Shown here one piece after another: positions 15,872 through 33,647 of a DNA stretch of 64,000 bases. Numbering within the stretch: position 1 is the first letter of the stretch; each line of letters opens with the position of its first letter. This DNA comes from Patescibacteria group bacterium (GTDB taxonomy: Bacteria; Patescibacteriota; Patescibacteriia; UM-FILTER-42-10): contig JAHJEX010000006.1 of NCBI GenBank assembly GCA_018825385.1, positions 186 to 64,185 on the forward strand. Direction: 5' to 3'. The notes under the pieces are model-generated. The model ran no database searches and was not told where the DNA came from. It saw nothing but the letters and a program-made list of their open reading frames with translations. Made by a program: the position numbers and the translations under genes.

Positions 15872-15883
15872 TAATATTTATAT

Positions 15884-16753
15884 ATGCTAGTCCAAAAAAA
15901 ATCACAGAAAAGAAATATAATCCTTGGGGCAATCTTTGCTGTTTTGATTGTTGTAATGATATTTGTTTTAAATATGGGTCCCAGTGGTTCTGACGATGAC
16001 TTATTGAATGGCGTGTTGAATAATGAGAGTGTAGTAATATTACCGGCTGTTGTAGATATTGACAGTGCTTTTTTTGGAAAAAAGGATGTGGTTGGATTGC
16101 GTGATAGAAGTGGGCAACGCTATGTTGGACAATTTGCAAGTACTCCCACAGATTCCCAAATCACTCCAGCACCGGAAGGGGCATATATACTAAATATACA
16201 AGTCGGTGAAAAACTGATACTTTATTGGGATTTTAGTTCTAGATATGTTGCAGTTAAAATATATAGATCAGAAACGCAAGAGAAAAAAGGGGAATTGATT
16301 GCGGAAGTGTCCAATAGAAACTACTACCAGGATACTGGCATTGAAAATGGAGTTTACTACTATTACACGCTTATTGCAGTAGGGGCTAATGGTCAGGAAT
16401 CTGATGATTCTGTTAAAATGACCGGCAGTCCAACTGATATTTTTGCTCCACAAAGCCCAGTGGGATTAGCAGTTGCAGATTCAACGGATGGAAATCAAGT
16501 ACAAATTTCTTGGGTTGATCCTAAGGATAATGATTTTGCGTATGTTCGTATCTATCGCTCACAGATTGAAGGTAGTCTGGGAACTTTAATACTAGATAAA
16601 GCGGTTGAAAACAATACCTACGTGGACAAAAATGTTCTTGAAGATGTTGAATATTTTTATACTATTACATCGGTGGATACCTCAGGAAATGAATCTGAAA
16701 AATCGTTGTTACCTGTTGGTGGGAATAACAATCCGTTTCAACCATTATTTTAA
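15884..16753 (+). CDS. membrane-anchored protein with two fibronectin type III-like domains, pilus-associated by context
   Basis: N-terminal TM helix. Two FN3-like modules (LILYWDFSS...YYYYTLIAVGANGQES; VQISWVDP...YFYTITSVDTSGNES). Confidence 0.6.
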   Translation: MLVQKKSQKRNIILGAIFAVLIVVMIFVLNMGPSGSDDDLLNGVLNNESVVILPAVVDIDSAFFGKKDVVGLRDRSGQRYVGQFASTPTDSQITPAPEGAYILNIQVGEKLILYWDFSSRYVAVKIYRSETQEKKGELIAEVSNRNYYQDTGIENGVYYYYTLIAVGANGQESDDSVKMTGSPTDIFAPQSPVGLAVADSTDGNQVQISWVDPKDNDFAYVRIYRSQIEGSLGTLILDKAVENNTYVDKNVLEDVEYFYTITSVDTSGNESEKSLLPVGGNNNPFQPLF

Positions 16754-16770
16754 TTAGCAATAGATCATCA

Positions 16771-18537
16771 ATGGCAATCCCAAAACCAAACACAAATCAA
16801 AGCGAAGCAGTTGATCCTCTAGTAGAGGCCTTACTTGAAGGTAAATATATCAGCCAGACACAATACGCAGATGCACAAGAAAAGAGCAAAGCCTTGGCCG
16901 TATCTGTTCTTCAGGTTATCTCTGAGGAAAATATGGTTCCAGATGAAGAATTTGCTAAAGTAAAAAGCAAAGTATATGGAGTTCCTTTCATGGACCTATT
17001 TGGCAAGATGATTCGTTCAGATATTTTAAACATAATCTCACACGAACTCGCTCAAAACTACAAAATGGTTGCTTTCAATAAGGAAGCCAATGAGGTAAGT
17101 ATTGCTATGCTTCAGCCAAACGATTTTCATGCACTGGAAGCAGTAGAATTTTTAGCTAGGAAGAATCAATACAAAATAAAATATTATGTTACCTCGCAAG
17201 GAGCTTTTAACCATGTTCTTAAGCAATATGCAACGCTATCAGAAGAAGTGGAGCAAGCATTAAAAGGAACAGAAGCGGAAGCAAAAGCTGCTGAAGAAGG
17301 TATAGAATTAGCTGAAAAAGGACTGGAAGAGGTCATTAAAAAAGCACCAGTATCCAAAATGGTTTCAGTTATATTAAGGCATGCAGTTGAAGGAAGAGCA
17401 TCAGATGTCCATATCGAGCCGGTAGGAAATGAAACACGCGTACGTTATCGTATTGATGGTGTATTACATACGTCTTTGATTCTGCCAAAACATGTGCATC
17501 CATCTGTAGTGGCTCGTATTAAAGTGCTTTCTAATTTGAAAATTGATGAAACGAGAATACCTCAGGACGGTCGTTTTCGAATGAGCATTGATGGAAAGGA
17601 TATAGACTATCGTGTTTCAACGTTGCCACTTATTAATTATGAAAAAGTGGTAATGCGTATTCTAGACACAACTGAGGGAGGTAAGAAACTAGAAGATTTG
17701 GGTTTTGACGGTAGGAATGCAGAAGTGATGAGAGAAAATATCAAAAAAAGCCATGGAATGTTCTTGGTAACCGGTCCAACAGGTTCTGGTAAGTCAACAA
17801 CACTCTATTCTATTTTAACCGTTATGAATCAGGAAGGAGTGAATATAGTTACCTTGGAAGATCCGGTAGAATATTATTTAGCTGGAATTAATCAATCCCA
17901 AATCAATGCTGACGTTGGATTAACATTTGCTCGTGGTTTGAGGGCAATCTTGCGTCAGGATCCAGACGTAATCATGGTTGGAGAAATACGTGATAATGAA
18001 ACAGCAGAACTTGCAGTACACGCAAGTTTGACAGGCCACATAGTGCTTTCTACCCTACATACTAACGACGCGTTTGGTGCTATACCCAGATTAATTGACA
18101 TGAAGATTGAGCCCTTTCTAGTATCTTCATCTACAAATGTTATTATTGCCCAGAGACTTGTTCGGAGTATTTGTACTTATTGTAAGGCGGAAACGACAGT
18201 GCCAGAAGAATTAGAAAATGAAATATGGGTTGAATTAGAAAAGATTCCAAAGGCAGCGATTCCCGAAGACGTAAATGCCACCCGTCCTCTAAAGTTCTAC
18301 AAAGGAAAAGGATGTGCTCGTTGTGAGCATACTGGTTATAAGGGAAGACTGGCAATCTCAGAAGTATTAGAAATCAATGATGTGTTAGAAAAAATAATTA
18401 TGTCTGGAAGCAACACTGATGAAATAAAAGAAGAATTCAAAAAGCAAGGAATGATTTCACTTAAAGAAGATGGCATAATTAAAGCACTTCAGGGCAAAAC
18501 TACTATTCAGGAAGTCTGGAATGTTACAAGAGAATAA
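16771..18537 (+). CDS. pilB: type IV pilus assembly (extension) ATPase PilB / GspE family
   Basis: N-terminal GspII-like domain. Walker A GPTGSGKSTT. Walker B/Asp box DPDVIMVGEIRD. Tetracysteine motif CTYC...CARC. Confidence 0.9.
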   Translation: MAIPKPNTNQSEAVDPLVEALLEGKYISQTQYADAQEKSKALAVSVLQVISEENMVPDEEFAKVKSKVYGVPFMDLFGKMIRSDILNIISHELAQNYKMVAFNKEANEVSIAMLQPNDFHALEAVEFLARKNQYKIKYYVTSQGAFNHVLKQYATLSEEVEQALKGTEAEAKAAEEGIELAEKGLEEVIKKAPVSKMVSVILRHAVEGRASDVHIEPVGNETRVRYRIDGVLHTSLILPKHVHPSVVARIKVLSNLKIDETRIPQDGRFRMSIDGKDIDYRVSTLPLINYEKVVMRILDTTEGGKKLEDLGFDGRNAEVMRENIKKSHGMFLVTGPTGSGKSTTLYSILTVMNQEGVNIVTLEDPVEYYLAGINQSQINADVGLTFARGLRAILRQDPDVIMVGEIRDNETAELAVHASLTGHIVLSTLHTNDAFGAIPRLIDMKIEPFLVSSSTNVIIAQRLVRSICTYCKAETTVPEELENEIWVELEKIPKAAIPEDVNATRPLKFYKGKGCARCEHTGYKGRLAISEVLEINDVLEKIIMSGSNTDEIKEEFKKQGMISLKEDGIIKALQGKTTIQEVWNVTRE

Positions 18538-18569
18538 ATAATAAAACAATAGAATTAAAAGAAACAACT

Positions 18570-18965
18570 ATGCAAACAACTGGAGCTGAATTAAATAAAA
18601 AGAAGATAGTTCTTGTGGAGGATGATTCTTTTTTGGCAGGGATGTATGTGTCAAAGTTGAATTTAGAGGACTTTGAAGTAAAATTAGCGGAGAACGGAGA
18701 AGATGGTTTGAAACTGGCTACAGCAGAAATACCTGATTTGATTTTGCTGGATATTCTTTTGCCCAGAATGGATGGATTTGAGGTTTTAAAGAAGCTAAAG
18801 CAAAATCCATCAACTGCAGATATTCCAGTTATTTTGCTCACGAATTTAGGTCAAAAAAAGGATGTTGATCGAGGCTTGGCCTTGGGCGCGAAGGACTATC
18901 TTATTAAGGCGCACTTTATGCCTAATGAGGTTATTGCTAAAATAAAGAAAATTCTTAAAACCTAA
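18570..18965 (+). CDS. stand-alone response-regulator receiver (CheY-like) protein
   Basis: Acidic pocket VEDD. Phospho-acceptor Asp in ILLDILLP. T/K motifs ILLTNLGQ...DYLIKA. No output domain. Confidence 0.85.
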   Translation: MQTTGAELNKKKIVLVEDDSFLAGMYVSKLNLEDFEVKLAENGEDGLKLATAEIPDLILLDILLPRMDGFEVLKKLKQNPSTADIPVILLTNLGQKKDVDRGLALGAKDYLIKAHFMPNEVIAKIKKILKT

Positions 18966-18969
18966 ATTA

Positions 18970-20064
18970 TTGCAACAACCAGAATCGACTCTCAGGACGA
19001 ATGAGCAGATAGAGATAAATCGAATATTAACATCAGTGGCAGAGTATAATGCTTCTGATCTTCATCTTTCTGTTGGTAATGTTCCTACTGTCAGAATTGA
19101 CGGAGAACTAACTCCATTACGTGAAGAAAAGGTAATTACTCCAGATTTTTTGGAAAAACTAAAGCTTTTTCTTTTAGATGAAAAGCAAAGAGAAATACTT
19201 GAAACTGAAAGAGAGATAATCTTTTCATATAATTTTCAAAATCGTATTAGATTCAAAATTAATCTCTTTTATCAAGAAGGATATTTATCTGCTTCACTTC
19301 GACTTATAGCTTCAGATACCAAAACATTAGTTGAGCTTGGTCTTCCAAAAGCAGTTGAGCAGGTTACAAAACTTAACAAAGGTTTGGTAATAGTTTGCGG
19401 ACCGTTTGGTTCAGGACGCAGTTCTACTCTTGCTGCAATTTTGAACGAAATTAACGATAATAGGAATGAACATATTCTAACCATAGAGAAACCGATTGAA
19501 TATGTGTTTATGGACAACAAGAGTATAGTTGAACAAAGAGAAGTAGGAAGAGATACGCGTTCATTTGAAAGAGCTTTAAAGTCAGCTTTCCAGGAAGATA
19601 TAGATGTCATTCTAGTGGGGGATTTAAAGAACAAGGAAGTGATTAAAAGTGTCTTGGATCTTTCTGAGGGGGGGCGATTAGTATTTGGCGGGATGGATAC
19701 AGACTCTTCAATTAAAACTATTGAAAAACTAATAAACAGTTTTGATGCACAAGAACAACAACAAACAAGAGTTCAGCTTTCGGAGGTATTAGCAGGAATA
19801 ATTGTGCAAAGATTGTTGCCAAGAGTGGGTGGGGGCAGAATACTAGTGGCAGAAATACTTATTCCAACCCCTCCAGTGCGAGCTGTAATACGAGAAGGTA
19901 ATCTTCTTCAGCTAAACAATGTACTCCAGACTTCAAGAGAAGAAGGAATGATATCCCTAGACAGATCGCTGGCAGAATTGGTTAAGACTGGTGAAATATT
20001 ATTAGATAGTGCACTACAATATGCAGTTGATAAAAATAATTTACAAATGTTAGCACAACGCTAA
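18970..20064 (+). CDS. pilT: PilT-family retraction ATPase paralog with atypical Walker A (GSGRSS) and Walker B (VGDLKN)
   Basis: PilT N-terminus (ASDLHLSVGNVPTVRIDGE). P-loop GPFGSGRSSTL (Lys replaced by Arg). DVILVGDLKNKE (Glu replaced by Asp). TTG start. Confidence 0.8.
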   Translation: MQQPESTLRTNEQIEINRILTSVAEYNASDLHLSVGNVPTVRIDGELTPLREEKVITPDFLEKLKLFLLDEKQREILETEREIIFSYNFQNRIRFKINLFYQEGYLSASLRLIASDTKTLVELGLPKAVEQVTKLNKGLVIVCGPFGSGRSSTLAAILNEINDNRNEHILTIEKPIEYVFMDNKSIVEQREVGRDTRSFERALKSAFQEDIDVILVGDLKNKEVIKSVLDLSEGGRLVFGGMDTDSSIKTIEKLINSFDAQEQQQTRVQLSEVLAGIIVQRLLPRVGGGRILVAEILIPTPPVRAVIREGNLLQLNNVLQTSREEGMISLDRSLAELVKTGEILLDSALQYAVDKNNLQMLAQR

Positions 20065-20075
20065 ATAAATTTATT

Positions 20076-21284
20076 ATGGCAGTTTACGATTACAAAGCAA
20101 AAGATGTTGAAGGAAACTCTGTCACCGGAGCAGTAGAAGCTTCTTCAGAAACAGTCGCGGTTGACATGTTAAAAGATAAGGATCTAATAGTCCTTTCTTT
20201 GAGCGAGCGAAGAAAACGCACACTCTTTCAAGCAAGTCTCGGGTTTCTAAATAGAGTTCCCAGAAAAGAGGTTGTAATTTTCTCCAGACAGTTAGCGGTT
20301 ATGATCTCTGCTACGGTACCAATTGTAAAAGCGTTGACTATTCTTACAAAACAAACAGAAAATATAACTTTCAAAATCATTGTTTCGGAAATTGCTGACG
20401 AAGTTGATGGAGGTGCAAGGTTGTCTGACACTTTAGGACGCTATCCGCAAGTATTTGATGATTTTTTCGTGTACATGATTAAATCAGGTGAAACAACCGG
20501 AAAATTAGACGAGACCCTAAATTATCTTGCCGATCAAAAAGAAAAAGATTACGATCTTACATCAAAGATCAAGGGAGCAATGATTTATCCTGTATTTATT
20601 TTGGGCGCCTTGGTAGTTGTAGGTATAGTTATGATGATCTTTGTAATTCCTCAGCTAACAGCCGTACTTGAAGAGGCAGGCACGGAACTGCCATGGGCAA
20701 CAAGAATGCTTATGGCGACTAGTGATTTTCTACAGAATTATTGGTGGTCTTTAATAGTAATTGCGATTGTCAGTACATTATCGTATCGTTTGTATTATCG
20801 AACCTCAACCGGGAAAAAACAAATTGATAAAATAAAACTAAGAATCCCAGTATTTGGCAACATTTACAAAAAAATATATCTGACGCGTTTTGCACGCAGT
20901 TTTTCTAATCTCATTGCCAGTGGTATTCCTTTGTCTAGAGCATTGGGGATCGTTGCCGATGTAATAGGTAATCATACATATAAGGAAATTACGCTAGAGA
21001 CAATCAAAGAGGTTGAAGATGGAAATTCAGTGTCAACTGTTTTCTTAAAACACAAAGAAGTTCCCGTAATGCTGTCACAAATGTTAACTGTGGGTGAACA
21101 AACCGGCCGGCTAGATAAAATATTAGCAAAGCTTGCTGATTTTTATGCTAAAGAAGTGGAGAATTTAGTTGCAAATCTTGTGAGCCTTATTGAGCCTATG
21201 ATTATCGCGCTGTTAGGTGTTGCTGTTGCTGTGTTGGTTGTATCCATATTGTTGCCTCTATACAGTCTTTCAACAGCTATTTAG
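20076..21284 (+). CDS. pilC: type IV pilus inner-membrane platform protein PilC (GspF family)
   Basis: Two GspF repeats, three TM segments, 402 aa. Position after pilT. Confidence 0.9.
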   Translation: MAVYDYKAKDVEGNSVTGAVEASSETVAVDMLKDKDLIVLSLSERRKRTLFQASLGFLNRVPRKEVVIFSRQLAVMISATVPIVKALTILTKQTENITFKIIVSEIADEVDGGARLSDTLGRYPQVFDDFFVYMIKSGETTGKLDETLNYLADQKEKDYDLTSKIKGAMIYPVFILGALVVVGIVMMIFVIPQLTAVLEEAGTELPWATRMLMATSDFLQNYWWSLIVIAIVSTLSYRLYYRTSTGKKQIDKIKLRIPVFGNIYKKIYLTRFARSFSNLIASGIPLSRALGIVADVIGNHTYKEITLETIKEVEDGNSVSTVFLKHKEVPVMLSQMLTVGEQTGRLDKILAKLADFYAKEVENLVANLVSLIEPMIIALLGVAVAVLVVSILLPLYSLSTAI

Positions 21285-21459: not shown

Positions 21460-21924
21460 ATGAGAAACAAAAAAGGTTTTACATTAATCGAGTTGTTAGT
21501 TGTTATCGCAATTATTGGTCTTTTAGCCACAATTGCAGTAGTAGCATTAAACAGCGCAAGAACAAGTTCACGAGATGCTAAGAGGATTGCTGATGTCCGA
21601 CAGGTACAAACCGGGTTGGAGTTATATTTTAACGCCGAAACGGATTACCCAACTTGTACTACAGCTGCTACCGTCGCGAGTTTGGACGGTGCTGGTTGCG
21701 CCGATGGGATAACAACTTACGTTTCTGGAATCTCCAATGTTTATGATCCCTCGGGTGATGCAACTACCGCTGCTTGTCTTGTCGATGCTACCGGTACGTG
21801 TAACTATTCTTATCAAGGAGTTGCGGAGGGAGACAGCTATACCATTTTATTCTGGCTCGAAGGTGATTCCGGATCATTGACAGGAGGAGAGATTCATACA
21901 GCGAGTGACGCAGGTATACTTTAA
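21460..21924 (+). CDS. pilA: type IV major pilin (prepilin with class III signal peptide)
   Basis: MRNKKG|FTLIELLVVIAIIGLLATIAV is a canonical prepilin cleavage/methylation motif. 154 aa. Cys pairs in the C-terminal half. Confidence 0.9.
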   Translation: MRNKKGFTLIELLVVIAIIGLLATIAVVALNSARTSSRDAKRIADVRQVQTGLELYFNAETDYPTCTTAATVASLDGAGCADGITTYVSGISNVYDPSGDATTAACLVDATGTCNYSYQGVAEGDSYTILFWLEGDSGSLTGGEIHTASDAGIL

Positions 21925-21938: not shown

Positions 21939-21986
21939 AAAGGACCTACTAGTCTTCAAACGAAGCGGTGGGTCCTTTTGGTTTTA
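21939..21986 (+). terminator. rho-independent terminator after the pilin gene
   Basis: AAAGGACC ... GGTCCTTT stem with an internal cttc-aaac-gaag hairpin, followed by TTGGTTTT. Confidence 0.6.
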
Positions 21987-22028: not shown

Positions 22029-24026
22029 ATGAAAATAAATAAGATTCTATTTATTGTTCTTGGGGTGTTGGTTACAGCGCTTCCTCTTTTTTTAAACACG
22101 GCATCTGATACAGAGTTTACTTTTAATAAGACACTGCTTTTTCAACTTGGCATTCTGATAATACTTGTATTACTTTTTTTTAGTAATAAACTAAATATCG
22201 CTTTACTATGGAGTAAGTATAAGACGATAGCGTCTTTGTTACTTTTATATTTAGTTGTATTGGTACTTACTACAATATTTTCTGATTCATCTTTTATAAG
22301 TTTTTTTGGAGCGGATAGAAAGCAAGGTTTGTTTCAATACTTATTCTATTTTTCCCTGATATTTATTGCTCTTGCTATTATCACAAAAATGAAACAAGTA
22401 TATAGATTGATATATTTTGTAATTAGCGGATCAATCCTAGTAAGTATTGTTGGAATTGTTGAGCAGTTGGGTTATAGAGTATTCGACTATACAATATTTG
22501 ATAAGGGGATAGCTTCTACTCTTGGTCATCCAAGTTTTCTTGGTGCATACATAGTTATGACAATACCACTTACGATGGCGTTAATCTTCATTATTTCTAC
22601 TAAGGTAATGAAGCTTCTGTTTTTATTTCTACTTATACTTCAAGGATTTGTTGTGTTTTTCTCGCAAACTCGAGGTGCTTGGATATCAATGATTGCAATG
22701 GTTGTATTTATTGGGATTATAGTTCTTATTAAGTACAAAAAAAGAAAATTACTTTATTCACTTTTGATTTTACTAGTTATTATTGTTGGTTTGATAGTGG
22801 GTACGGGGTTGATTCAAAAGGTTGTCGATTATCAGTCTGGATCGGGGGCATTGCGAATACTGTGGGCTGAACAAGCTTCCGAAGCAATTAAGAAAAGTCC
22901 GTTGTTAGGGTATGGGCTTGATATGCAAAAAGATGTCTTAATTAGCTATTATGATCCTCTACAAGGCGTATATAGTTATTACAATCTATTTACTGATCGT
23001 ATTCACAATGAATTTCTGGATCATGCATTTACATCTGGATTGATAGGACTGGGAACTTATTTAGCTATACTAATTCTAACATTTACTAGTGCAATTAGAT
23101 TCTTCTTAAAAAGTAATAACAGTAAAGAATCTGTAATTGTCTTGGCGTTGATTACTGGCATATTTGCATACATAGTTCAAGGGATGTTTAGTTTTTCCGT
23201 CACAATTCTATATGTATATTTATGGCTCTACATAAGCTTGATATTTATTACTATAAGGTTAGCAAGTAATAATAAAAAGGAAGATGTAATTGTACCTGTG
23301 AAGAATATGTCATATGTTAATTATCCGATAAGCTTAGTATTGATTGCGCTTATTGGAATTACTATCATGAGACCTATAATTGCTGACGGTTTTTTAGAGC
23401 GTATGACAAATATTAATTTGGAAAGTCGCTTCGCTGTTTATGAATTAAAGGATATTCACTCTAGTATTCTTCCTTATGTAAATAGTAGTTCAGGCGAATT
23501 ACCATACCGGATTCGATATGTTAATCTTTTATTGGCATTAGCAATTATGCAAGATACTGATGAAGAAAAAACAGAGTTGTTTGAATTGTGTAAAAATGAG
23601 TTGGATATTATAAGGCAGAAAAATTCATTAAATTTATATTATGATTTAAAAATGGGCGATTTAATGAGAGAGTGGGGAAAAATTGATTACAGCAAATTTG
23701 AATCTATGAATTACTATTATCAGCAGACAATAATAAAAAGTCCGAATTATGCTCTTCTGTATTATTATTGGGGTAGAGGATTAGAAGTTGAGGGTAATCT
23801 CACGGAAGCAAAAAAACAATATCTTAAGGCAATCACATTATTTGCAGATCCTGATACTTTTGGCATAGTTGATGAAATGAAAAAGCATTTAACGCTTTCA
23901 ATAGCGGCGGTATTTTTAAGATTATCAGAAGTTGAAAGCACGCTAGGTAATATTGATATTGCAAACACATACCACAAAAAAAATCAGGAGCTGATTGCCC
24001 CTTATCTTTCCCCAGAAATTCTGTAA
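22029..24026 (+). CDS. polytopic membrane protein with O-antigen-ligase/Wzy_C-like core and C-terminal TPR repeats (candidate O-oligosaccharyltransferase or polymerase)
   Basis: About 12 TM helices. FFSQTRGAWISMIAM region resembles the conserved SRGA segment of Wzy_C. TPR-like C-terminus. Sits immediately downstream of pilA. Confidence 0.6.
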   Translation: MKINKILFIVLGVLVTALPLFLNTASDTEFTFNKTLLFQLGILIILVLLFFSNKLNIALLWSKYKTIASLLLLYLVVLVLTTIFSDSSFISFFGADRKQGLFQYLFYFSLIFIALAIITKMKQVYRLIYFVISGSILVSIVGIVEQLGYRVFDYTIFDKGIASTLGHPSFLGAYIVMTIPLTMALIFIISTKVMKLLFLFLLILQGFVVFFSQTRGAWISMIAMVVFIGIIVLIKYKKRKLLYSLLILLVIIVGLIVGTGLIQKVVDYQSGSGALRILWAEQASEAIKKSPLLGYGLDMQKDVLISYYDPLQGVYSYYNLFTDRIHNEFLDHAFTSGLIGLGTYLAILILTFTSAIRFFLKSNNSKESVIVLALITGIFAYIVQGMFSFSVTILYVYLWLYISLIFITIRLASNNKKEDVIVPVKNMSYVNYPISLVLIALIGITIMRPIIADGFLERMTNINLESRFAVYELKDIHSSILPYVNSSSGELPYRIRYVNLLLALAIMQDTDEEKTELFELCKNELDIIRQKNSLNLYYDLKMGDLMREWGKIDYSKFESMNYYYQQTIIKSPNYALLYYYWGRGLEVEGNLTEAKKQYLKAITLFADPDTFGIVDEMKKHLTLSIAAVFLRLSEVESTLGNIDIANTYHKKNQELIAPYLSPEIL

Positions 24027-24034
24027 AGCAAATA

Positions 24035-25909
24035 CTATTCTTCTTCCATCTGCGCGACGATTGTTTCCCGCAGATTTTTTATTGTTTCGACCCGTGTAAT
24101 TAGTTGATTGTGCGTTTCTTGATCGGCATGAATTTTTTCTATATTTTCATTGTCAAAAAGATTTAGTGCAATATCTAAAACTTCAATTGCTTGATCGTAT
24201 TTTTCCTGACGCTGAAGAATAAAACCCAGCAACTGATACTGATATGCACCATTATGGGGATTGTAGCTAATTGCAGTCCGCAACTCTTTTTCTGCCTCTA
24301 AAATTTCATTGTCTTCTCCAGAACTTATAAAATTTAGGGCATAACCAAACGCTTCATGTCTTTTTGCAGAAAGCGGGTCAAGCTCAACGGCTTTTCTGGC
24401 ATATTTTGCACTCTTGTATTGATTTTCTTCGCGTATCCCTTTGTGATCCAGTATTCTTATTTGGTAGCTTTCCGAAAGATTGCCGTACAGATCGGCATCA
24501 AGGGAATTCAAGTTAACTGCCTTTTCCAACAGAGCAATAGAATCATCAACATCACCTAGGTCATCCTGAATTATGTCCATTCTTTTATTCCATAAATCTG
24601 TAATTGTTGGCACTACTATTATATATCCAACTATGAGCGACGAAACGAAAACAAAAATCTGGAACCGTAAATTATTATTTGTATTTTGAAGGTTTTTAGT
24701 ATCTTTTCCAAGAGGGGACTTTGCCAGAGCAAAGATTAATCCTACTTCAACAAACCATAACAGCAGCAAAGCAGGGATTTCCCAATCAATATCAACCAAG
24801 CTATGTCCAAATGAAGCTATAATCCCCCCAAATATTCCGACAGAATAATAGTATTGTGATTCATTTCCCTTTATTGTTATTCTGAATACATCTCTTGCTT
24901 TGCGTACAATAGAAAAAAGGAAAAACATAAATACTAAAAATCCAAACACACCCAGTTCTGTCAGAAAAAGCAAGATGCTGTTATGTGGGGATACTGAGAA
25001 TGACCAGACGTTCTGCTGGAAGTGAGTATAGATAGTTTCAAAATTACCAATTCCAACTCCAACTACGGGATTATGGGTAAACATTTCCCAACTAGTTTTC
25101 CAATAATCAATTCGATTATTAACTGCGTTTGACTGGATTGCGCTTGCTTGCTGGATCGATTCCCCGTTTGAGGGTGCATGAAGCTGTAATAAACCAAAAA
25201 TCAGAACAGTTATGATGACAATAACAAAGAGCAGTCTGGTTAAAAGTTGTTTAGTAGGTACTTTTCTTAATAACCATATAGTCAAGATAAAAACAATAGT
25301 CATTGCAAGCCAACTGGCTTGAGAAAATGTGAAGTATAGGTTAATTGCCAGTAAGACGGTAGTGATTCCGAAAAAAGTCTGTTCTCTCCGTTGTTTCTCA
25401 ACAAGAAACTGAGTCAATGTTATCGGTAAGGTAAGCAAAATAAATCCTGCAAAAATATTGCGCCAGCCAAAAAAAGAAGCAACACCTAAAGTTATATCTT
25501 GTAGTTGAAAGAAATTGACGATTCCGTTTAGAGCAGCAATGAGCGCAACGGCAGAAAGAGTAAATATAATAATTCTAAACTGCTTGCCGCTTTCAACAAA
25601 TTGAAAAACCAGCCAAAAAGCACCGATAATTAGCGTATACATCACTAAACCGAGGATGCTGTTATAGTGATATGCAGAAAACACAGTTGAGAGAATTAAG
25701 AAGAAAATAAAAGCTGTCAAAGCGATTGGAAGCTTCAACTTTTTTTTATCCAAGCTCGTAATGGCAAGCAATAAAACTGAAAGTATTATTACCTCAATTA
25801 TCGCCAATCCCCAGACAGAACGGCTGGACCATCCTAAAAGGGTGGATACGATAATTGCACCGATGCCAAATATTATAATTGAGGAAGATTTATTTACTAA
25901 AATTGACAT
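24035..25909 (-). CDS. second Wzy_C-like polytopic membrane protein with C-terminal TPR repeats (paralogous architecture to 22029-24026)
   Basis: Multiple TM helices. TFSQASWLAMTIVF motif. C-terminal TPR-like repeats (YQYQLLGFILQRQEKYDQAIEVLDIALNL). Convergent with the previous gene. Confidence 0.6.
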   Translation of the reverse strand: MSILVNKSSSIIIFGIGAIIVSTLLGWSSRSVWGLAIIEVIILSVLLLAITSLDKKKLKLPIALTAFIFFLILSTVFSAYHYNSILGLVMYTLIIGAFWLVFQFVESGKQFRIIIFTLSAVALIAALNGIVNFFQLQDITLGVASFFGWRNIFAGFILLTLPITLTQFLVEKQRREQTFFGITTVLLAINLYFTFSQASWLAMTIVFILTIWLLRKVPTKQLLTRLLFVIVIITVLIFGLLQLHAPSNGESIQQASAIQSNAVNNRIDYWKTSWEMFTHNPVVGVGIGNFETIYTHFQQNVWSFSVSPHNSILLFLTELGVFGFLVFMFFLFSIVRKARDVFRITIKGNESQYYYSVGIFGGIIASFGHSLVDIDWEIPALLLLWFVEVGLIFALAKSPLGKDTKNLQNTNNNLRFQIFVFVSSLIVGYIIVVPTITDLWNKRMDIIQDDLGDVDDSIALLEKAVNLNSLDADLYGNLSESYQIRILDHKGIREENQYKSAKYARKAVELDPLSAKRHEAFGYALNFISSGEDNEILEAEKELRTAISYNPHNGAYQYQLLGFILQRQEKYDQAIEVLDIALNLFDNENIEKIHADQETHNQLITRVETIKNLRETIVAQMEEE

Positions 25910-25912: not shown

Positions 25913-26773
25913 CTACTTTTTGATTATTATTACCAAATGTGGATTCAAAAATGATCTTCGTATGAACTGAGGACCAGAAGAAACCATATTCATATAAAAA
26001 TTAAAGGGCTTGATGAATATTTTTAAGTACGGGTTAAAGTCAGTAACCTTAAATGAGAAATAATTTTTTAAAGGTAAAACCATCATTAAGCTATATTTAG
26101 TCTCTGACAAATATTCATTAATATCTTTGAAGCTAGCAAGGAAATCATTAGTTATAGAATGGAATCTCATTCCGTGTTTTTCATAATGCCAAAAGTCAAT
26201 AGGGAAAAGTCGATTTGGAAAACCGAATATGTTATAACCTCCCACTTTACTGACTCTTAGTAGTTCCTTAGCATACTGAGCTCTTTCCCTGTTTCTGATG
26301 TTTTTGCTTGATGTTTCCTCGACATGTTCAATAACTCCAAAATTCATTACAACATCAAAATATTTATCAGGAAAAGGCAAATTTCTTCCGTCAGCAATTA
26401 CTAGATTCTTGCTCTTTCTGCGATTCCAATAATTTATGCGATCTCCTGTATCAACAGCCCACGCCTCATACCCGATATCTGACAATACATCGATTTCGAC
26501 AGCAGATCCACACCCGACTGATAATATTTTTAGAGGACCTTCATTTTTAAAAAGTTTTTTGAATAGGGGAACAAGATATTTCTTTACCTTATTTATATTT
26601 GCTTCTTCCTCTTTTTCTATTGCCTCAGAACTTGTATCAGAAAAGTATTTTTCATAGGTCAGAAAATTTGGAAACTCCCCCTCGTAAGTAAAATATTTAT
26701 TACACTTAACGCAATAATATGCTGATTGTTGTTGATTAAGACTGTGCTGACATTTTGGACAGATATAGTTCAT
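25913..26773 (-). CDS. class I SAM-dependent methyltransferase with N-terminal Cys4 zinc ribbon
   Basis: CPKCQHS...CVKCNKYF ribbon. SAM-binding motif ILSVGCGSAVEIDVL. Confidence 0.75.
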   Translation of the reverse strand: MNYICPKCQHSLNQQQSAYYCVKCNKYFTYEGEFPNFLTYEKYFSDTSSEAIEKEEEANINKVKKYLVPLFKKLFKNEGPLKILSVGCGSAVEIDVLSDIGYEAWAVDTGDRINYWNRRKSKNLVIADGRNLPFPDKYFDVVMNFGVIEHVEETSSKNIRNRERAQYAKELLRVSKVGGYNIFGFPNRLFPIDFWHYEKHGMRFHSITNDFLASFKDINEYLSETKYSLMMVLPLKNYFSFKVTDFNPYLKIFIKPFNFYMNMVSSGPQFIRRSFLNPHLVIIIKK

Positions 26774-26777: not shown

Positions 26778-27896
26778 TTATCTATTTGAGATATTTATTG
26801 TGTTTCTATATACTTCTAATGTTTTTTGAGCAGTTTTTTCCCATGAAAAATGTTTTAATAGATCATTTTTTAGCAAGTCAGATTTCGGTGATTCAAATGC
26901 TTCTAGTACAGTACTCTTGATTGAATTTATATCTGCAGGATTGCAATATTTAGCAAAGTTTCCCAGATATTCTTTTGCATATCCTCGATCAGTGCTTACA
27001 ACATTGCATCCTGCTAATCCGGCTTCTAAGCTTACTAAACCGCATGTTTCGAACCAGCTTGGCAACACATGTACTTTGGCAGCAGCATAAGCTGATTTTA
27101 GCATATCTTTCGTGATATCAGTAATAAGTGTGATATTTGGATTTTTGTTGACTTCACGGTGGATAAGTTGAAAATACTTTTTATGATTTTTTTGGGGTTT
27201 CCCAATCAACACCAGTTTAAGACCAGTATTTTTCAACGCATGTATTAGCGAGAGGTGATTTTTAATACTGGAAAAATTAGCAACACATAGTACAAAATCC
27301 TTAATGTTGTATTTTTTTGTAAATAGACCTGAATTCGAATTAACAAAATCCGCATCGATTCCATTTGGCACGACGTGATATTTATTATGTATTCCCAAAT
27401 CATTTTCCAGTTGTTTCATTTCCAGATCTGAATTTAGGAGGAGGGCATTAACATTGGAAAGCACTTTTTGCTGCTGTTGTACATATCCATGGGTAAGCTG
27501 AGAGAAGAACCGCTGATACAGATTAATATTTGTTATTGCTCTCAAAAACAGTTTAAAGAGTTCCTTTGTGTTTTTATCAGGAATAGTCTTCATAAAAAAA
27601 CTTTGAATACCATATCTTCCTTTACGATCCCACTCGTCAAAATTTTGATAAAGAGGCGTAAGGACTACGGGCTTTTGTTGATTTTTAGCATTCTGAAACT
27701 GAGCGTATGTTTCGTGCGGTCGGGTTATGTTAAAAAGATGGACAATATCGTATCCTGACAGGTCTGGTTCCAATTTTGTTGATATATTAACAGATACACC
27801 TATTTTCCTTAGATGTTCTAAAGTTCTATTTATTTGCAGAGTATCGCCGCCGGGATTGGATTCTAAATCAGTCCTGCTGTTTAAAAGAATTTTCAT
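26778..27896 (-). CDS. glycosyltransferase family 4 (GT-B, group 1)
   Basis: EX7E motif FETCGLVSLEAGLAGCNVVSTDRG. 372 aa. Confidence 0.8.
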   Translation of the reverse strand: MKILLNSRTDLESNPGGDTLQINRTLEHLRKIGVSVNISTKLEPDLSGYDIVHLFNITRPHETYAQFQNAKNQQKPVVLTPLYQNFDEWDRKGRYGIQSFFMKTIPDKNTKELFKLFLRAITNINLYQRFFSQLTHGYVQQQQKVLSNVNALLLNSDLEMKQLENDLGIHNKYHVVPNGIDADFVNSNSGLFTKKYNIKDFVLCVANFSSIKNHLSLIHALKNTGLKLVLIGKPQKNHKKYFQLIHREVNKNPNITLITDITKDMLKSAYAAAKVHVLPSWFETCGLVSLEAGLAGCNVVSTDRGYAKEYLGNFAKYCNPADINSIKSTVLEAFESPKSDLLKNDLLKHFSWEKTAQKTLEVYRNTINISNR

Positions 27897-28833
27897 ATTT
27901 TTTCAATTTATTCCTAGATATAAGAGTTAAAAAAAGAAAACCATAGTTTATTGCCTGGATATAATATTTTTTGCTAATTGACCCAATGATGATTCCAAAA
28001 AAGAAATAAAAAATACTTTTAAGCATTATGAAAAAATATAACTGGATAAATTTACCAAAAAAGTAGTGTTTCTTAAAAAATAGCAAAATATTATTGTATC
28101 CGAATATAATTGCCGGGGCTTTGTTAGAAGAACCACCATGTTTGTAGTGTATTACAGTGTCAATGGGAAAATAGTAGTTTTTGTATCCCTCCTGTTTAAT
28201 TCTATAACACAGATCAACTTCTTCTACATATAGAAAGAATTTTTCATCAAAGCCCGATACTTTGTCAAAAACCTTTTTCTTAATCATGAAACATGACCCT
28301 GATACCCAGTCGGGATTGAATTTATTTTGATATTTTTTTTCATTGAGTATATGATAGGAACTTTTTGGTTTGAATATTCGGTCTAGAAATAGAGCTTCTG
28401 CAATAATATTCCAGAGAGTAGGGAAGTTTCCGCATGAAGATTGAAGTGAACGATCGCTATTCATAATCTTAAAACCAATTGCACCAGCATCTTCATACTT
28501 TTCCGCAGCAGCAATCATTTTATTTAAAGCATTCTTTTCTAGTGCAGTGTCACTATTAATCAAAAGAAGATACTCGCCCCTTGCTATGGCAGCTCCCTGA
28601 TTATTAGCGACACCAAAACCCATATTTTTATCATTTTCAATTAACTTAATTTCAGGAAAATATTCTTTTACCATTTTCACCGTTTCATCAGATGAAGCGT
28701 TATCAACTACAATAATTTCAACTTCTTTATTGTGATTTTGATCATTAATTGAATTCAGACATTCCTTAAGAAGCTGTTTAGTATTATAACTTACAATGAT
28801 TATTGATAATATATTAGAACTAGATTGTTGCAT
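27868..28833 (-). CDS. glycosyltransferase family 2
   Basis: N-terminal GT-A signature IIVVSYNTKQLLKECL...EIIVVDNASSDET. The 29-nt overlap with the downstream GT4 gene suggests coupling. Confidence 0.8.
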   Translation of the reverse strand: MQQSSSNILSIIIVSYNTKQLLKECLNSINDQNHNKEVEIIVVDNASSDETVKMVKEYFPEIKLIENDKNMGFGVANNQGAAIARGEYLLLINSDTALEKNALNKMIAAAEKYEDAGAIGFKIMNSDRSLQSSCGNFPTLWNIIAEALFLDRIFKPKSSYHILNEKKYQNKFNPDWVSGSCFMIKKKVFDKVSGFDEKFFLYVEEVDLCYRIKQEGYKNYYFPIDTVIHYKHGGSSNKAPAIIFGYNNILLFFKKHYFFGKFIQLYFFIMLKSIFYFFFGIIIGSISKKYYIQAINYGFLFLTLISRNKLKKYENSFKQQD

Positions 28834-28886: not shown

Positions 28887-29924
28887 CTATTTTTTTTCAA
28901 GAATAGCACCAAGTATATAATATTCAGAATTAATGAAATTATACAAAATGTTCATAAAAAACCGAGCAGGAGCAAATAAGAGCAACTTTTTTATATACTT
29001 TTTCACAATGAAATCCTTGGTAGTCTTTTTTTTGTAAATATTGTTTCCTTCTTTACTAATTATGGGATCAGGAATATTTTTTCTTCTAGATAATGACGAA
29101 AAATAAGTAATCAATTTATTTTCTTTCATTGAATTATATTTGGAAAAATCTACAAAATGACAATTTAAATTACTACTATCGGCCATAAATTTAATACTAT
29201 TTTTAGTAAACCAAATAGTATGGACTGGTGGTTGTTCTGTAAACCAAACTGTTTTTTTGGGTAGATAATCTTTATTAGGTGTAGTTAAAATAATCTTTCC
29301 TTTTTTATTTAACAGTCTGATACAAATATGAATGAATTCAATGGGGTTAACAATATGTTCAATAAATTCTGTTGCGATAATAAAATCAAAATTTTCATTT
29401 GTTTTGAAATCATCATATGAAGTTAAATAGTAATTATCGCCAAAATTAGATTTGGCATATTGGATTGCTTCATTGGAAATATCTATTCCAATCGCATTGT
29501 GGCCAATTTTATTTAATGCATAAGTTAGATACCCGTATCCGCAACCTATCTCCAGGATTTTTTGTTTTGTTTTTTTACTTGAAAAAATATGATCTATCGA
29601 ATAATATGATGGTTCTTCATTTGCTAGGAAAAGAAGCGGATTCTTTTGGTCTTTGATTGTCTGTGCGTATCGATAATATCTATCATATCCTGGTGCGTTT
29701 TTTTGGGAATAGATGATATTATATATTGTTTTATTAGTACTTTCTTTTGAGATAAATTGAATGTTGCACTGATTACAACTAAAAATATTATAACTTGTTC
29801 CCTCAATATATCCTGGAAATTCTGAGTATATTTCAGTAATATTTTTTGATTTGCAAATTGGACAATCTATTTTTTTTAATTCCTGTTTTTCAATATTATT
29901 TAACATTGTTTGTTTGAACTGCAA
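28887..29924 (-). CDS. class I SAM-dependent methyltransferase with N-terminal zinc ribbon (paralogous architecture to 25913-26773)
   Basis: CPICKSK...CNQCNIQF ribbon. SAM motif ILEIGCGYGYLTYAL. Confidence 0.75.
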   Translation of the reverse strand: MQFKQTMLNNIEKQELKKIDCPICKSKNITEIYSEFPGYIEGTSYNIFSCNQCNIQFISKESTNKTIYNIIYSQKNAPGYDRYYRYAQTIKDQKNPLLFLANEEPSYYSIDHIFSSKKTKQKILEIGCGYGYLTYALNKIGHNAIGIDISNEAIQYAKSNFGDNYYLTSYDDFKTNENFDFIIATEFIEHIVNPIEFIHICIRLLNKKGKIILTTPNKDYLPKKTVWFTEQPPVHTIWFTKNSIKFMADSSNLNCHFVDFSKYNSMKENKLITYFSSLSRRKNIPDPIISKEGNNIYKKKTTKDFIVKKYIKKLLLFAPARFFMNILYNFINSEYYILGAILEKK

Positions 29925-32114: not shown

Positions 32115-32115
32115 A

Positions 32116-33632: not shown

Positions 33633-33647
33633 TAGATCAATAGTTTC

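What the first reader, a model, noticed from the sequence alone, without database searches (positions are those of the whole stretch)
22029..25909. Two convergent, paralogous Wzy_C-like + TPR membrane proteins with stops 8 nt apart
The two genes share an architecture (about 12 TM helices, FSQ[T]RGAW / FSQASW motif, C-terminal TPR repeats) and face each other. The first is co-oriented with and immediately after pilA, a TfpO-like arrangement. The second heads the minus-strand glycan operon. One could be the pilin oligosaccharyltransferase and the other a polymerase or ligase for a different acceptor. The C-terminal TPRs are unusual for Wzy_C proteins and might mediate substrate-protein recognition.
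Basis: partly seen in the sequence, partly recalled or inferred. Interest (0 to 1): 0.55.

Follow-up and report, generated by a model that had tools for sequence, protein, structure and literature searches.

The report
Pilus-embedded glycosylation genes, two transferases
Two ancient sister membrane enzymes of the O-antigen-ligase/PglL superfamily, each carrying an outward-facing TPR domain, sit in a complete sugar-chain assembly cassette wedged inside the type IV pilus gene cluster of an uncultured Patescibacteria bacterium. They most likely attach sugars to the pilus protein, which has been predicted but never shown in this group.

Summary
A (22029-24026, +, 665 aa) and B (24035-25909, -, 624 aa) are convergent with an 8-nt gap. 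Both pass the Pfam Wzy_C cutoff and are full-length paralogues (hhalign 99.8%, E 5e-28). AF2 models (pLDDT 92/86) show a WaaL-like core, an extra 13th helix and a C-terminal TPR solenoid predicted to lie outside the cell.

- B is the last gene of the minus-strand operon, not its head.
- Wzy_C with a C-terminal TPR domain is common, not unusual.
- There are 13 TM helices, not 12.

The pair sits in a complete lipid-linked glycan cassette (PGT, GT4, GT2, two methyltransferases, Wzx) placed between pilA and pilD. The pilA -> A -> <- B layout persists in lineages down to about 31-33% identity.

The two enzymes have lost different motifs. A keeps the WaaL/PglL Arg-Arg-His triad but lacks the PglL-type H-x3-D/E motif. 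B keeps that motif but has Gln in place of the first Arg, with a basic residue in another loop.

B is present in every lineage. A is absent once and split twice.

Best reading: en-bloc O-glycosylation of type IV pilin. B is the core PglL-like transferase. A is either a second pilin-dedicated transferase or a polymerase. It is a new variant of a known kind, of moderate interest.

The parts
12954..21284 (+). Type IV pilus machinery: PilM, PilN-like, PilO-like, a 289-aa protein, PilB, response regulator, PilT and PilC.
   Evidence: NCBIfam and Pfam hits. The same order is found in related loci.
21460..21924 (+). pilA, the likely major prepilin and the proposed glycan acceptor. It has an N-terminal methylation motif. 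The globular part is 24% Ser/Thr, has 4 Cys and no Lys or Arg.
   Evidence: N_methyl 40.9 bits and IV_pilin_GFxxxE. The first 57 residues are identical or nearly identical across lineages, while the C-terminal domain is hypervariable. Composition.
21939..21986 (+). Terminator-like hairpin with a U-rich tail directly after pilA.
   Evidence: Folding energy -22.2 kcal/mol, z -3.9, with 0 of 200 shuffles folding as well. The hairpin is conserved with compensatory stem changes in 9 of 10 lineages, including the one that lacks A.
22029..24026 (+). Protein A, 665 aa. It has a WaaL-like 12-TM core (aa 1-413), a 13th TM helix (about aa 425-450) and an extracytoplasmic TPR-like solenoid (about aa 461-660, nt 23409-24023). 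It keeps R215, R276 and H326 and lacks the H-x3-D/E motif (QGMFSFS instead).
   Evidence: Wzy_C 68.4 bits. AF2 pLDDT 92.5, pTM 0.92. Foldseek to WaaL 7tpg_B at E 8.7e-7, target TM-score 0.68, with TPR hits at probability 1.0. Residue mapping to E. coli WaaL. Motif table.
24035..25909 (-). Protein B, 624 aa. It has a WaaL-like core (aa 1-397), a 13th TM helix (about aa 414-437) and an extracytoplasmic TPR domain (about aa 451-620, nt 24038-24559). It has Q197 in place of the first Arg, an invariant GWR150N loop, R266, H309 and H369-x3-D373-x-D375.
   Evidence: Wzy_C 70.9 bits and TPR_2 29.1 bits. AF2 pLDDT 86, pTM 0.87. Foldseek to consensus TPR at E 7e-6 and to WaaL at E 5e-5. Orthologue alignment. 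Motif covariation.
25913..26773 (-). Zn-ribbon plus SAM methyltransferase (MT1), 3 nt upstream of B's start.
   Evidence: Methyltransf_11 49 bits. No homologue was found in any of the related loci.
26778..27896 (-). GT4-family glycosyltransferase. In the orthologous loci searched (L001-L019) where the upstream region is readable, except L016, it lies directly upstream of B (starts within about 30 nt or overlapping). In the window MT1 intervenes and in L025 a toxin-antitoxin pair does; L021 has a PGT there.
   Evidence: Glycos_transf_1 62 bits. 62-81% identical in the orthologous loci.
27868..28833 (-). GT2-family glycosyltransferase.
   Evidence: Glycos_transf_2 110 bits.
28887..29924 (-). SAM methyltransferase (MT2).
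   Evidence: Methyltransf_23 69 bits.
29931..31355 (-). Wzx-type flippase, the first gene of the minus-strand operon.
   Evidence: Polysacc_synt 84 bits. Only 36-56% identical between lineages.
31437..32114 (+). Small phosphoglycosyl transferase that primes the lipid carrier. Its stop is 1 nt before the pilD start.
   Evidence: Bac_transf 199 bits. It is next to pilD in most related loci that reach it; a bAvd-like ORF (L006) or about 2 kb (L011) intervenes in the Kerfeldbacteria.
32116..32853 (+). PilD prepilin peptidase.
   Evidence: A24_N_bact 116 bits and Peptidase_A24.
32856..37288 (+). Minor-pilin-like proteins of 258, 213 and 266 aa, followed by a conserved 747-aa protein. These are possible additional acceptors.
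   Evidence: N_methyl hits at 24-26 bits. Conserved in related loci.

Best explanation
**What it is.** The region is the transferase core of a pilus-dedicated, en-bloc protein O-glycosylation system in a Patescibacteria (Kerfeldbacteria-related) bacterium.

**Proposed pathway (inferred from the gene set).**
1. The small phosphoglycosyl transferase, co-transcribed with pilD, primes a polyprenyl phosphate.
2. The GT4 and GT2 enzymes and two methyltransferases build a short methylated oligosaccharide on the cytoplasmic face.
3. Wzx flips it to the outer face.
4. A Wzy_C enzyme with a WaaL/PglL-type active site (Arg in the large outer loop plus the HN histidine) transfers it to Ser/Thr, or possibly Tyr, on the hypervariable, Ser/Thr-rich globular domain of the type IV pilin, and perhaps of minor pilins.

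**Role of the TPR (inferred).** An extra 13th helix places the C-terminal TPR solenoid outside the membrane beside the catalytic loop. There it would dock the protein acceptor.

**Roles of A and B.**
- B is the best candidate for the core O-oligosaccharyltransferase. It is always present, lies at the end of the tightly spaced sugar-assembly operon, and has the PglL-type H-x3-D/E motif.
- A is an accessory second transferase. It has the canonical WaaL Arg-Arg-His triad, lacks the PglL-type motif, and is lost once and split twice. It is either a pilin-dedicated O-transferase paired with a broader one, as with TfpO and PglL in Acinetobacter (my recollection of Harding et al. 2015), or the Wzy polymerase that lengthens the glycan.

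**Shown:** fold, topology prediction, motifs, gene content and conserved synteny.

**Inferred:** the acceptor, the donor, and the division of labour between A and B.
For: **Fold and active site.**
- Both proteins have the WaaL fold and pass the Wzy_C cutoff.
- R276/R266 and H326/H309 are invariant in a 40-sequence alignment. They map to E. coli WaaL R288 and H338 and to the C. metallidurans WaaL Arg and His.
- The histidine is required in TfpM, PglS and PglL (PMC9829042; PMC12800693).

**Topology.** A 13-TM, N-in model puts the TPR outside. PglS likewise has 13 TM helices and a periplasmic C-terminal domain that forms a cleft.

**Complete pathway inside the pilus locus.**
- PGT, GT4, GT2, two methyltransferases and Wzx are all present.
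- They lie between pilA and pilD, with a 1-nt gap between PGT and pilD.

**Conserved synteny.**
- The layout is conserved in about 12 lineages.
- pilA -> A -> <- B is kept at 31-33% identity (L021) and at 42-43% identity (L026 and L025).

**B as the core transferase.**
- B is present in 12 of 12 lineages. A is absent in L008 and split in both Kerfeldbacteria.
- B has HSLVDIDWEIP. The H and the D/E are conserved in 136 and 135 of the 153 aligned sequences. This matches the H400-x3-E404 motif that is conserved in PglL but not in WaaL. E404 is important for PglL activity.

**Pattern of divergence.** Relative to the window, the pilus machinery is 73-96% identical. pilA is 57-70%, A 31-67%, B 33-75% and Wzx 36-56%. 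This matches a variable surface-glycan and acceptor module.

**Precedents.** 21 of 31 pglL homologues lie next to pilin genes. WsfB is described as Wzy_C plus TPR.

**Organism.** The identical protein is recorded from a Patescibacteria group bacterium. By established knowledge this group lacks LPS, so a literal O-antigen ligase role is unlikely.
Against: - No biochemical data exist for any member of either family. Pilin glycosylation in Patescibacteria is only predicted (PMC11623550).
- Neither protein hits Pfam PglL_A (PF15864), even at E <= 10. The motif match for B is by eye on an alignment, without a PglL sequence in hand.
- B lacks the first Arg (E. coli WaaL R215 / PglL R224), which is reported as functionally important. 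Compensation by R150 is inferred only from covariation.
- The pilin of the lineage that lacks A shows no obvious difference from the others.
- More distant Wzy_C-TPR proteins are not next to pilins, so the architecture by itself does not imply a pilin acceptor.
- Other surface proteins could be the acceptor, for example the Gly-rich paralogues at 5848-10549 or an S-layer protein.
Confidence: 0.55

Rival explanations
1. A is the pilin-specific O-oligosaccharyltransferase, placed like TfpO just after pilA. B is a Wzy-type polymerase, or a ligase for a different acceptor, belonging to the sugar operon.
For: - A directly follows pilA in every lineage that has it.
- A keeps all three residues shared by WaaL and PglL (R215, R276, H326), whereas B lacks the first.
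- B is encoded together with the flippase and the glycosyltransferases, where wzy genes usually sit.
Against: - L008 keeps the whole cassette and pilA but has no A. If B were only a polymerase, that lineage would have no transferase in the locus.
- L015 keeps A and B with only PGT and GT4, which is a poor substrate set for a dedicated polymerase.
- B has a TPR domain and the PglL-type H-x3-D/E motif, and A lacks that motif.
- A's architecture (665 aa, 13 TM plus TPR) is not that of TfpO (440-470 aa), and the pilin has no C-terminal Ser/Thr.
- A conserved terminator separates pilA from A.
Confidence: 0.2
2. The cassette makes a cell-envelope glycopolymer or glycolipid-anchored polymer that is not attached to pilin. 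One paralogue would be the Wzy polymerase. The other would be a ligase to a glycolipid or wall acceptor, like the Wzy_C-family lipoteichoic acid ligase TacL of Streptococcus pneumoniae (my recollection). The position inside the pilus locus would reflect co-regulation of surface structures only.
For: - The gene set is a classical Wzx/Wzy-type set.
- Distant Wzy_C-TPR relatives sit in non-pilus contexts, next to PBP/MreB genes or PMT_2/YfhO genes.
- The best NCBIfam hits are to IctB-like and exosortase-associated putative ligases, all far below cutoff.
Against: - Synteny with pilA, and in most lineages direct PGT-pilD adjacency, is kept over deep divergence while the sugar genes themselves are swapped.
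- Both enzymes carry outward-facing TPR domains, which are typical protein-binding modules.
- No chain-length regulator or LCP-type ligase is in the locus.
Confidence: 0.17
3. The proteins are not glycan transferases at all. They would be IctB-like membrane proteins of another function; some database sources name relatives 'putative inorganic carbon transporter'.
For: The top NCBIfam hit is TIGR00947 (IctB family), at 49 bits for A and 88 bits for B. Some JGI names say the same.
Against: - The scores are far below the 366-bit cutoff.
- The catalytic Arg and His of WaaL/PglL are invariant.
- The genes are embedded among a PGT, glycosyltransferases and a flippase.
Confidence: 0.03

Closest known systems
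PglL / PglS O-oligosaccharyltransferases (Neisseria, Acinetobacter)
   Same: - Wzy_C domain and WaaL-like fold.
- A conserved Arg in the large outer loop and an essential His.
- 13 TM helices with an extra C-terminal extracytoplasmic domain (PglS).
- Genes frequently adjacent to pilin genes, 21 of 31 cases.
- B shares the H-x3-acidic motif that is specific to PglL rather than WaaL.
   Different: - No hit to Pfam PglL_A.
- The C-terminal domain is a 170-200-residue TPR solenoid.
- B lacks the Arg equivalent to PglL R224.
- The host is a Patescibacteria bacterium, not a proteobacterium.
- The whole glycan cassette is built into the pilus locus.
TfpO (PilO) with PglL in Acinetobacter; TfpO of Pseudomonas aeruginosa 1244
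   Same: A Wzy_C gene lies immediately downstream of pilA. Two Wzy_C paralogues lie near the pilin gene, one pilin-specific and one general (my recollection of Harding et al. 2015; class features from PMC9829042).
   Different: - TfpO is 440-470 aa without a C-terminal domain and modifies a C-terminal Ser/Thr. Here A is 665 aa with a TPR, and the pilin ends in ...AGIL.
- The two genes are convergent rather than tandem.
- The donor glycan genes are local, not borrowed from an O-antigen or capsule locus.
WsfB (Paenibacillus alvei) and WsaB + WsaA (Geobacillus stearothermophilus), predicted S-layer O-oligosaccharyltransferases
   Same: - A Wzy_C enzyme with a C-terminal TPR in a bacterium without an outer membrane, encoded within the glycan gene cluster.
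- In Geobacillus the TPR is a separate small protein next to the enzyme (PMC2943079). This mirrors the split form of A in Kerfeldbacteria.
   Different: - The proposed acceptor there is an S-layer protein (Tyr, Thr or Ser), not a pilin.
WaaL O-antigen ligase (PDB 7TPG; E. coli K-12 WaaL)
   Same: It is the best structural match for both TM domains, with target TM-scores of 0.68 and 0.64. A keeps the full R215/R288/H338 triad.
   Different: - WaaL has 12 TM helices and no TPR, and its acceptor is lipid A-core.
- Patescibacteria are not known to make LPS.
- B lacks the R215 equivalent.
Wzy O-antigen/capsule polymerases
   Same: They are often members of the same Pfam family and are encoded with Wzx and glycosyltransferases. 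Like Wzx, they diverge quickly between strains, and A is the more divergent of the two.
   Different: No extracytoplasmic TPR domain is known for Wzy (my recollection). There is no chain-length regulator in the locus. No diagnostic sequence feature could be tested.

Membership tests
Wzy_C superfamily (Pfam PF04932) | Score above the Pfam gathering threshold | tested here: met
   A scores 68.4 bits and B 70.9 bits against a cutoff of 31.7.
WaaL-type fold (GT-C_B membrane glycosyltransferase) | A 12-TM core with a large outer loop between TM9 and TM10, and structural similarity to solved WaaL | tested here: met
   AF2 pLDDT 92.5 and 86. Foldseek to 7tpg_B gives E 8.7e-7 with target TM-score 0.68 for A and E 5.2e-5 with 0.64 for B.
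WaaL / PglL catalytic residues | Arg (E. coli R215), Arg (R288) and His (H338), which are conserved in both WaaL and PglL | tested here: inconclusive
   A has all three (R215, R276, H326). B has R266 and H309 but Gln197 at the first site, with R150 in the GWRN loop as a possible substitute.
WaaL O-antigen ligase (function) | A lipid A-core acceptor, meaning an LPS-producing organism and a location in an LPS core locus | not testable with these tools
   The organism is a Patescibacteria bacterium. The locus is a pilus cluster, not an LPS core locus. Absence of LPS genes genome-wide could not be checked from a 64-kb window.
PglL O-oligosaccharyltransferase | Match to the PglL_A HMM (Pfam PF15864) | tested here: not met
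   There is no hit for A or B at E <= 10. HMMER's filters may hide very weak matches.
PglL O-oligosaccharyltransferase | Residues conserved in PglL but not in WaaL: H400-x3-E404(-x-P406) and G316-x-G318 | tested here: inconclusive
   B has H369-x3-D373-x-D375...P379 and G284-x-G286. A has G294-x-G296 but QGMFSFS in place of the H/acidic motif. The equivalence was judged without a PglL sequence in the alignment.
TfpO (PilO) pilin-specific O-transferase | Gene immediately downstream of pilA | tested here: met
   A starts 104 nt after pilA on the same strand, and this holds in all lineages that have A. A conserved terminator hairpin lies between the two genes.
TfpO (PilO) pilin-specific O-transferase | Size of 440-470 aa with no large C-terminal domain, and a C-terminal Ser/Thr on the pilin as acceptor | tested here: not met
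   A is 665 aa with TM13 and a TPR domain. The pilins end in ...AGIL...AGIQ or similar, with no terminal Ser/Thr.
TPR domain | Sequence match to TPR profiles and a helical-hairpin solenoid structure | tested here: met
   - B: TPR_2 scores 29.1 against a cutoff of 27, and the family profile matches consensus TPR at E 7.8e-20.
- A: it is below the Pfam cutoffs. Its model matches TPR structures at Foldseek probability 1.0, and it aligns to B's TPR.
IctB family (TIGR00947) | Score above the NCBIfam cutoff | tested here: not met
   49 and 88 bits against a cutoff of 366.
Wzy polymerase | Polymerisation of lipid-linked repeat units, usually with a chain-length regulator | not testable with these tools
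   No diagnostic sequence signature exists. No Wzz/PCP gene is present in the locus.

The most novel reading that the evidence does not exclude
The B-type proteins would define a previously unrecognised class of protein O-oligosaccharyltransferase. Its hallmarks are:
- Gln in place of the canonical first Arg;
- a relocated basic residue in a GW[R/K]N loop;
- the PglL-like H-x3-D/E motif;
- a membrane-anchored extracellular TPR.

This class would glycosylate type IV pilins in ultra-small bacteria without an outer membrane. It would be paired with an A-type paralogue that either targets a second acceptor or polymerises the glycan.

Together with the swappable sugar genes, the pair would give each lineage its own pilus glycan coat. 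That coat could affect host recognition or phage evasion in an episymbiotic lifestyle.
Probability: 0.3. Interest if true: 0.6.

Novelty: new variant of a known kind. Interest (0 to 1): 0.45.

Why it matters
- **Pili in this group.** Type IV pili are central to how cultivated Patescibacteria attach to their hosts. Whether their pilins are glycosylated is an open point: it has only been predicted from sequence (PMC11623550).
- **A concrete candidate.** This locus offers a self-contained, testable pathway of primer, transferases, flippase and two candidate O-transferases, physically tied to pilA and pilD.
- **Natural experiments.** The two paralogues have complementary motif losses. Natural variants also exist: A absent, A split into enzyme and TPR halves, and a minimal cassette of PGT plus GT4. 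Together these show which parts may matter.
- **Glycoengineering.** O-transferases with a modular protein-docking TPR could be useful for bioconjugate work, where only the PglL, PglS, TfpO and TfpM classes are currently used (PMC9829042).
- **Annotation.** The public name "O-antigen ligase family protein" is probably misleading for an organism of a group not known to make LPS.

Tried and rejected
- **Promoter and terminator scan of 21200-32300.** Counts were no higher than in shuffles. Only the pilA hairpin stood up when folded and compared across lineages.
- **tRNA and Rfam scans of the window.** Nothing was found.
- **Pilin sequence differences.** I looked for a feature separating the A-less lineage (L008) from the others. 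There was no clear difference.
- **Domain-wise divergence of A and B.** I asked whether the TPR or the core evolves faster. The catalytic loop is the most conserved part in both, and the TPR is about average, so this was not discriminating.
- **Pfam PglL_A at a permissive threshold.** No hit.
- **Single-sequence search of A's TM part against PDB sequences.** No WaaL hit. The link rests on structure and on Pfam.
- **Scans with B-specific peptides.** The GTDB genome scan gave only 4 loci and the metagenome scan 8. The family is narrow, so co-occurrence statistics rest on about 12 lineages.
- **Profile search with distant B-type representatives.** It did not return them; only P0075 became available for a context look-up.
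- **Model coordinates.** I could not check whether R150 of B sits where R215 of A does.
- **Rejected ideas.** The 8-nt convergent gap is not special. Orthologous gaps range from 1 to 36 nt, which is ordinary for compact genomes. A recent duplication is also ruled out, because both orthologue groups are separately conserved down to about 31-33% identity.

Full report
**1. The observation**

The two ORFs exist as described. A is 22029..24026 on the + strand (665 aa). B is 24035..25909 on the - strand (624 aa). Eight bases separate the stop codons.

Both pass the Pfam Wzy_C gathering score, at 68.4 and 70.9 bits against 31.7. They are homologous over nearly their whole length:
- BLASTP gives 23% identity over 409 residues, E 4e-13.
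- A profile-profile comparison of the two orthologue groups gives probability 99.8%, E 4.7e-28, over 517 aligned columns. These run from TM3 to the end of the C-terminal domain.

This is far beyond chance. Each protein also has its own orthologues down to about 31-33% identity. The duplication is therefore old.

**2. Anatomy of the two proteins**

AlphaFold2 models built on 40- and 43-sequence alignments are confident. A has pLDDT 92.5 and pTM 0.92; B has 86.0 and 0.87.

In both models the membrane part matches the cryo-EM structure of the WaaL O-antigen ligase, 7tpg_B. A gives E 8.7e-7 with target TM-score 0.68, and B gives E 5.2e-5 with 0.64. The C-terminal part matches TPR proteins at Foldseek probability 1.0.

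The evidence for the TPR differs between the two:
- B's TPR is also clear by sequence. TPR_2 scores 29.1 against a cutoff of 27, and the family profile matches consensus TPR at E 7.8e-20.
- A's TPR falls below every Pfam cutoff. It rests on the model and on its alignment to B.

The models show 13 membrane helices: the 12 of WaaL plus one more (A about 425-450, B about 414-437). With the N-terminus inside, Lys+Arg counts in short loops are 16 inside / 5 outside for A and 20 / 4 for B. The extra helix therefore carries the TPR domain to the outside, next to the large catalytic loop between TM9 and TM10.

**3. Active-site residues**

In a mixed alignment, the Arg of the large loop (A R276, B R266) and the HN histidine (A H326, B H309) are invariant. 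They remain so in 151 and 152 of the 153 aligned sequences.

I added E. coli K-12 WaaL to the alignment. The mapping is:

| E. coli WaaL | A | B |
|---|---|---|
| R215 (LTQTRATLL) | R215 (FSQTRGAW) | Q197 (FSQASW) |
| R288 | R276 | R266 |
| H338 | H326 | H309 |

Schulz et al. report that these three residues are important in WaaL and conserved in PglL. They also report that PglL proteins, but not WaaL, conserve Q178, N180, G316, G318, H400, E404 and P406 (PMC3643930).

B and most of its relatives carry H-x3-[D/E]-x-D...P (HSLVDIDWEIP) in the TM11-TM12 outer loop. The His is present in 136 of 153 and the acid in 135 of 153. The whole A family has QGMFSFS at that position instead.

B's subfamily always pairs the Gln at the first-Arg site with a basic residue in a GW[R/K]N loop between TM5 and TM6. 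This holds in 19 of 19 Gln-bearing sequences, against 14 of 125 relatives that keep the Arg/Lys.

Each paralogue has thus lost a different canonical element.

**4. Surroundings**

The identical proteins are on record from a "Patescibacteria group bacterium". The nearest named relatives are Candidatus Kerfeldbacteria.

Upstream on the + strand lie pilM, pilN-like, pilO-like, a 289-aa gene, pilB, a response regulator, pilT, pilC and the prepilin pilA at 21460-21924.

Downstream of B, the minus-strand operon reads Wzx -> methyltransferase -> GT2 -> GT4 -> methyltransferase -> B. Most gaps are 3-6 nt or overlaps, with one of 53 nt. B is therefore the last gene, not the head.

Across an 81-bp divergent intergenic region, a small phosphoglycosyl transferase (Bac_transf, 199 bits) starts the + strand again. 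One base later comes pilD, followed by minor-pilin-like genes.

A complete lipid-linked glycan pathway is therefore wedged between pilA and pilD.

**5. Comparative evidence**

I recovered about 12 informative lineages.
- **B** is present in all 12.
- **GT4** lies directly upstream of B in the orthologous loci L001-L019, apart from L016. In the window a methyltransferase intervenes, in L025 a toxin-antitoxin pair does, and L021 has a PGT there.
- **The PGT** sits next to pilD in most loci that reach it. A bAvd-like ORF or about 2 kb intervenes in the Kerfeldbacteria. In L021 a long PGT lies next to the B-like gene instead.
- **A pilin gene** adjoins A (or B in L008) in 11 of 11 loci that extend far enough.
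- **A** is intact in nine lineages and absent in one. The A-less locus is L008, on a 1.18-Mb contig, where pilA faces B directly.
- In two Kerfeldbacteria species A is split. The pieces are a 421-434-aa 12-TM enzyme, a 188-216-aa Y1-transposase-like ORF, and a 236-278-aa TM13+TPR protein. All are intact ORFs.
- L015 keeps only PGT, GT4, B and A.
- L021, at 31-33% identity, still shows pilin -> A-like -> <- B-like with the FSQASW and GWRN motifs.

Identity to the window differs by module:

| Gene(s) | Identity to the window |
|---|---|
| Pilus motor and platform (PilB, PilT, PilC) | 73-96% |
| pilA (variation all in the Ser/Thr/Gly/Ala-rich globular part) | 57-70% |
| B | 33-75% |
| A | 31-67% |
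| Wzx | 36-56% |

This is the usual pattern for a variable surface-glycan module.

More distant Wzy_C-TPR proteins are not next to pilins. The pilin link is therefore a property of these two families, not of the architecture in general.

**6. Is the TPR unusual?**

No. An exhaustive search with B against 1.84 billion cluster representatives gave 17,095 hits at E <= 1e-3 and 1,481 at E <= 1e-10. Of the 153 sequences aligned (B, its closest representatives and six A-family sequences), 145 have at least 120 residues beyond TM13.

Many hits carry precomputed TPR domains and come from other phyla. The literature describes WsfB of Paenibacillus alvei as Wzy_C plus a C-terminal TPR. In Geobacillus a separate TPR protein, WsaA, is encoded next to WsaB (PMC2943079). 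PglS has 13 TM helices and a periplasmic C-terminal domain (PMC12800693).

**7. Most likely mechanism**

The gene set, the fold, the outward-facing TPR and the conserved embedding in the pilus locus point to en-bloc O-glycosylation of type IV pilin. The proposed steps are:
1. The PGT primes the lipid carrier.
2. GT4, GT2 and the methyltransferases build a short glycan.
3. Wzx flips it.
4. A Wzy_C-TPR enzyme transfers it to the pilin, with the TPR docking the acceptor.

I rate this at about 0.55.

Within it, B is the better candidate for the core transferase. It is always present, lies at the end of the tightly spaced sugar operon, and has the PglL-type motif.

A is accessory, with two possibilities. 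It may be a second, pilin-dedicated transferase, as in the TfpO/PglL pair of Acinetobacter (my recollection of Harding et al. 2015; class features from PMC9829042). Or it may be a Wzy-type polymerase. I cannot separate these two:
- A's TPR and its fixed place after pilA favour the transferase reading.
- Its faster divergence, its dispensability and its lack of the PglL-type motif favour the polymerase reading.

A conserved terminator hairpin after pilA shows that pilA is largely its own transcription unit. It folds at -22.2 kcal/mol, z -3.9, and carries compensatory stem changes in 9 of 10 lineages. A would be expressed by read-through or from its own promoter-like element.

**8. Rivals**

It fits the A-less and minimal-cassette lineages poorly.
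- **A wall or glycolipid polymer pathway** that is merely co-located with the pilus genes is rated at about 0.17.
- **An IctB-like non-glycan role** is very unlikely, at about 0.03. The scores are far below cutoff.

**9. Comparison with known systems and novelty**

By function, the closest known systems are the PglL/PglS and WsfB-type O-oligosaccharyltransferases. By gene order, the closest is TfpO.

Membership in PglL by its Pfam model is not met. TfpO's size and acceptor features are not met. A literal WaaL function is unlikely in a group not known to make LPS.

I found no paper linking O-antigen-ligase-like genes with pili in Patescibacteria. The one detailed pilus study in the group only predicts pilin glycosylation.

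I class this as a new variant of a known kind, of moderate interest (0.45). It is a well-defined, testable candidate pilin glycosylation system in an under-studied group. It includes an instructive pair of diverged paralogues and several natural variants. Function remains inferred.

Noticed in passing
L006 11961-14828 and L011 11878-14447 (Candidatus Kerfeldbacteria): The orthologue of A is split into a 421-434-aa 12-TM enzyme and a 236-278-aa TM13+TPR protein. A 188-216-aa ORF with a faint Y1-transposase hit and an HxH-type motif (DHLHLLI / NHIHLLI) lies between them. All three ORFs are intact in two different species, so the two halves may work as separate polypeptides, like WsaB and WsaA.
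   Followed up: partly
window 21939-21986, and the equivalent position in L001, L003, L006, L008, L011, L015, L016 and L026: There is a strong hairpin with a UUUUGGUUUU tail right after pilA. It is conserved with compensatory stem changes (GGACC/GGUCC, GAACC/GGUUC, GAGCC/GGCUC). It looks like a conserved intrinsic terminator of the pilin gene.
   Followed up: yes
window 21994-22028: A promoter-like element (TGGTCA, 17 nt, TATAAT) ends 6 nt before A's ATG, and no Shine-Dalgarno-like sequence is visible. A might be translated from a leaderless or near-leaderless transcript. The promoter scan as a whole was not above chance.
   Followed up: no
window 5848-12826: Four large ORFs (526, 523, 503 and 751 aa) lie directly upstream of pilM. 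They have signal-anchor-like N-termini, and the first three have about 15-16% Gly; none has a Pfam hit. The local G+C is higher (0.42-0.45 against about 0.36). The first two are 60% identical, and the second and third share 32% over their N-terminal region. They may be surface proteins and therefore alternative glycan acceptors.
   Followed up: partly
window 25913-26773: The Zn-ribbon plus methyltransferase gene between GT4 and B has no homologue in any related locus. It appears to be a lineage-specific addition to the glycan pathway.
   Followed up: partly
L015 4072-9855: One lineage has a minimal cassette of PGT, GT4, B and A only. It has no Wzx, GT2 or methyltransferase in the locus.
   Followed up: no
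L025 837-1695: A nucleotidyltransferase/HepT-like toxin-antitoxin pair is inserted between GT4 and the B orthologue (P0075).
   Followed up: no
L010 13972-14427: The pilA orthologue contains an in-frame stop codon (LEGASG*LAAG). This is either a sequencing error or a pseudogene.
   Followed up: no
L006 2670-3035: In one Kerfeldbacteria genome, a 121-aa bAvd / 23S_rRNA_IVP-family gene sits between the PGT and pilD. This family includes the accessory proteins of diversity-generating retroelements.
   Followed up: no
window 18570-18965: A stand-alone response-regulator receiver gene lies between pilB and pilT. It is conserved at 83-95% identity in all related loci.
   Followed up: no
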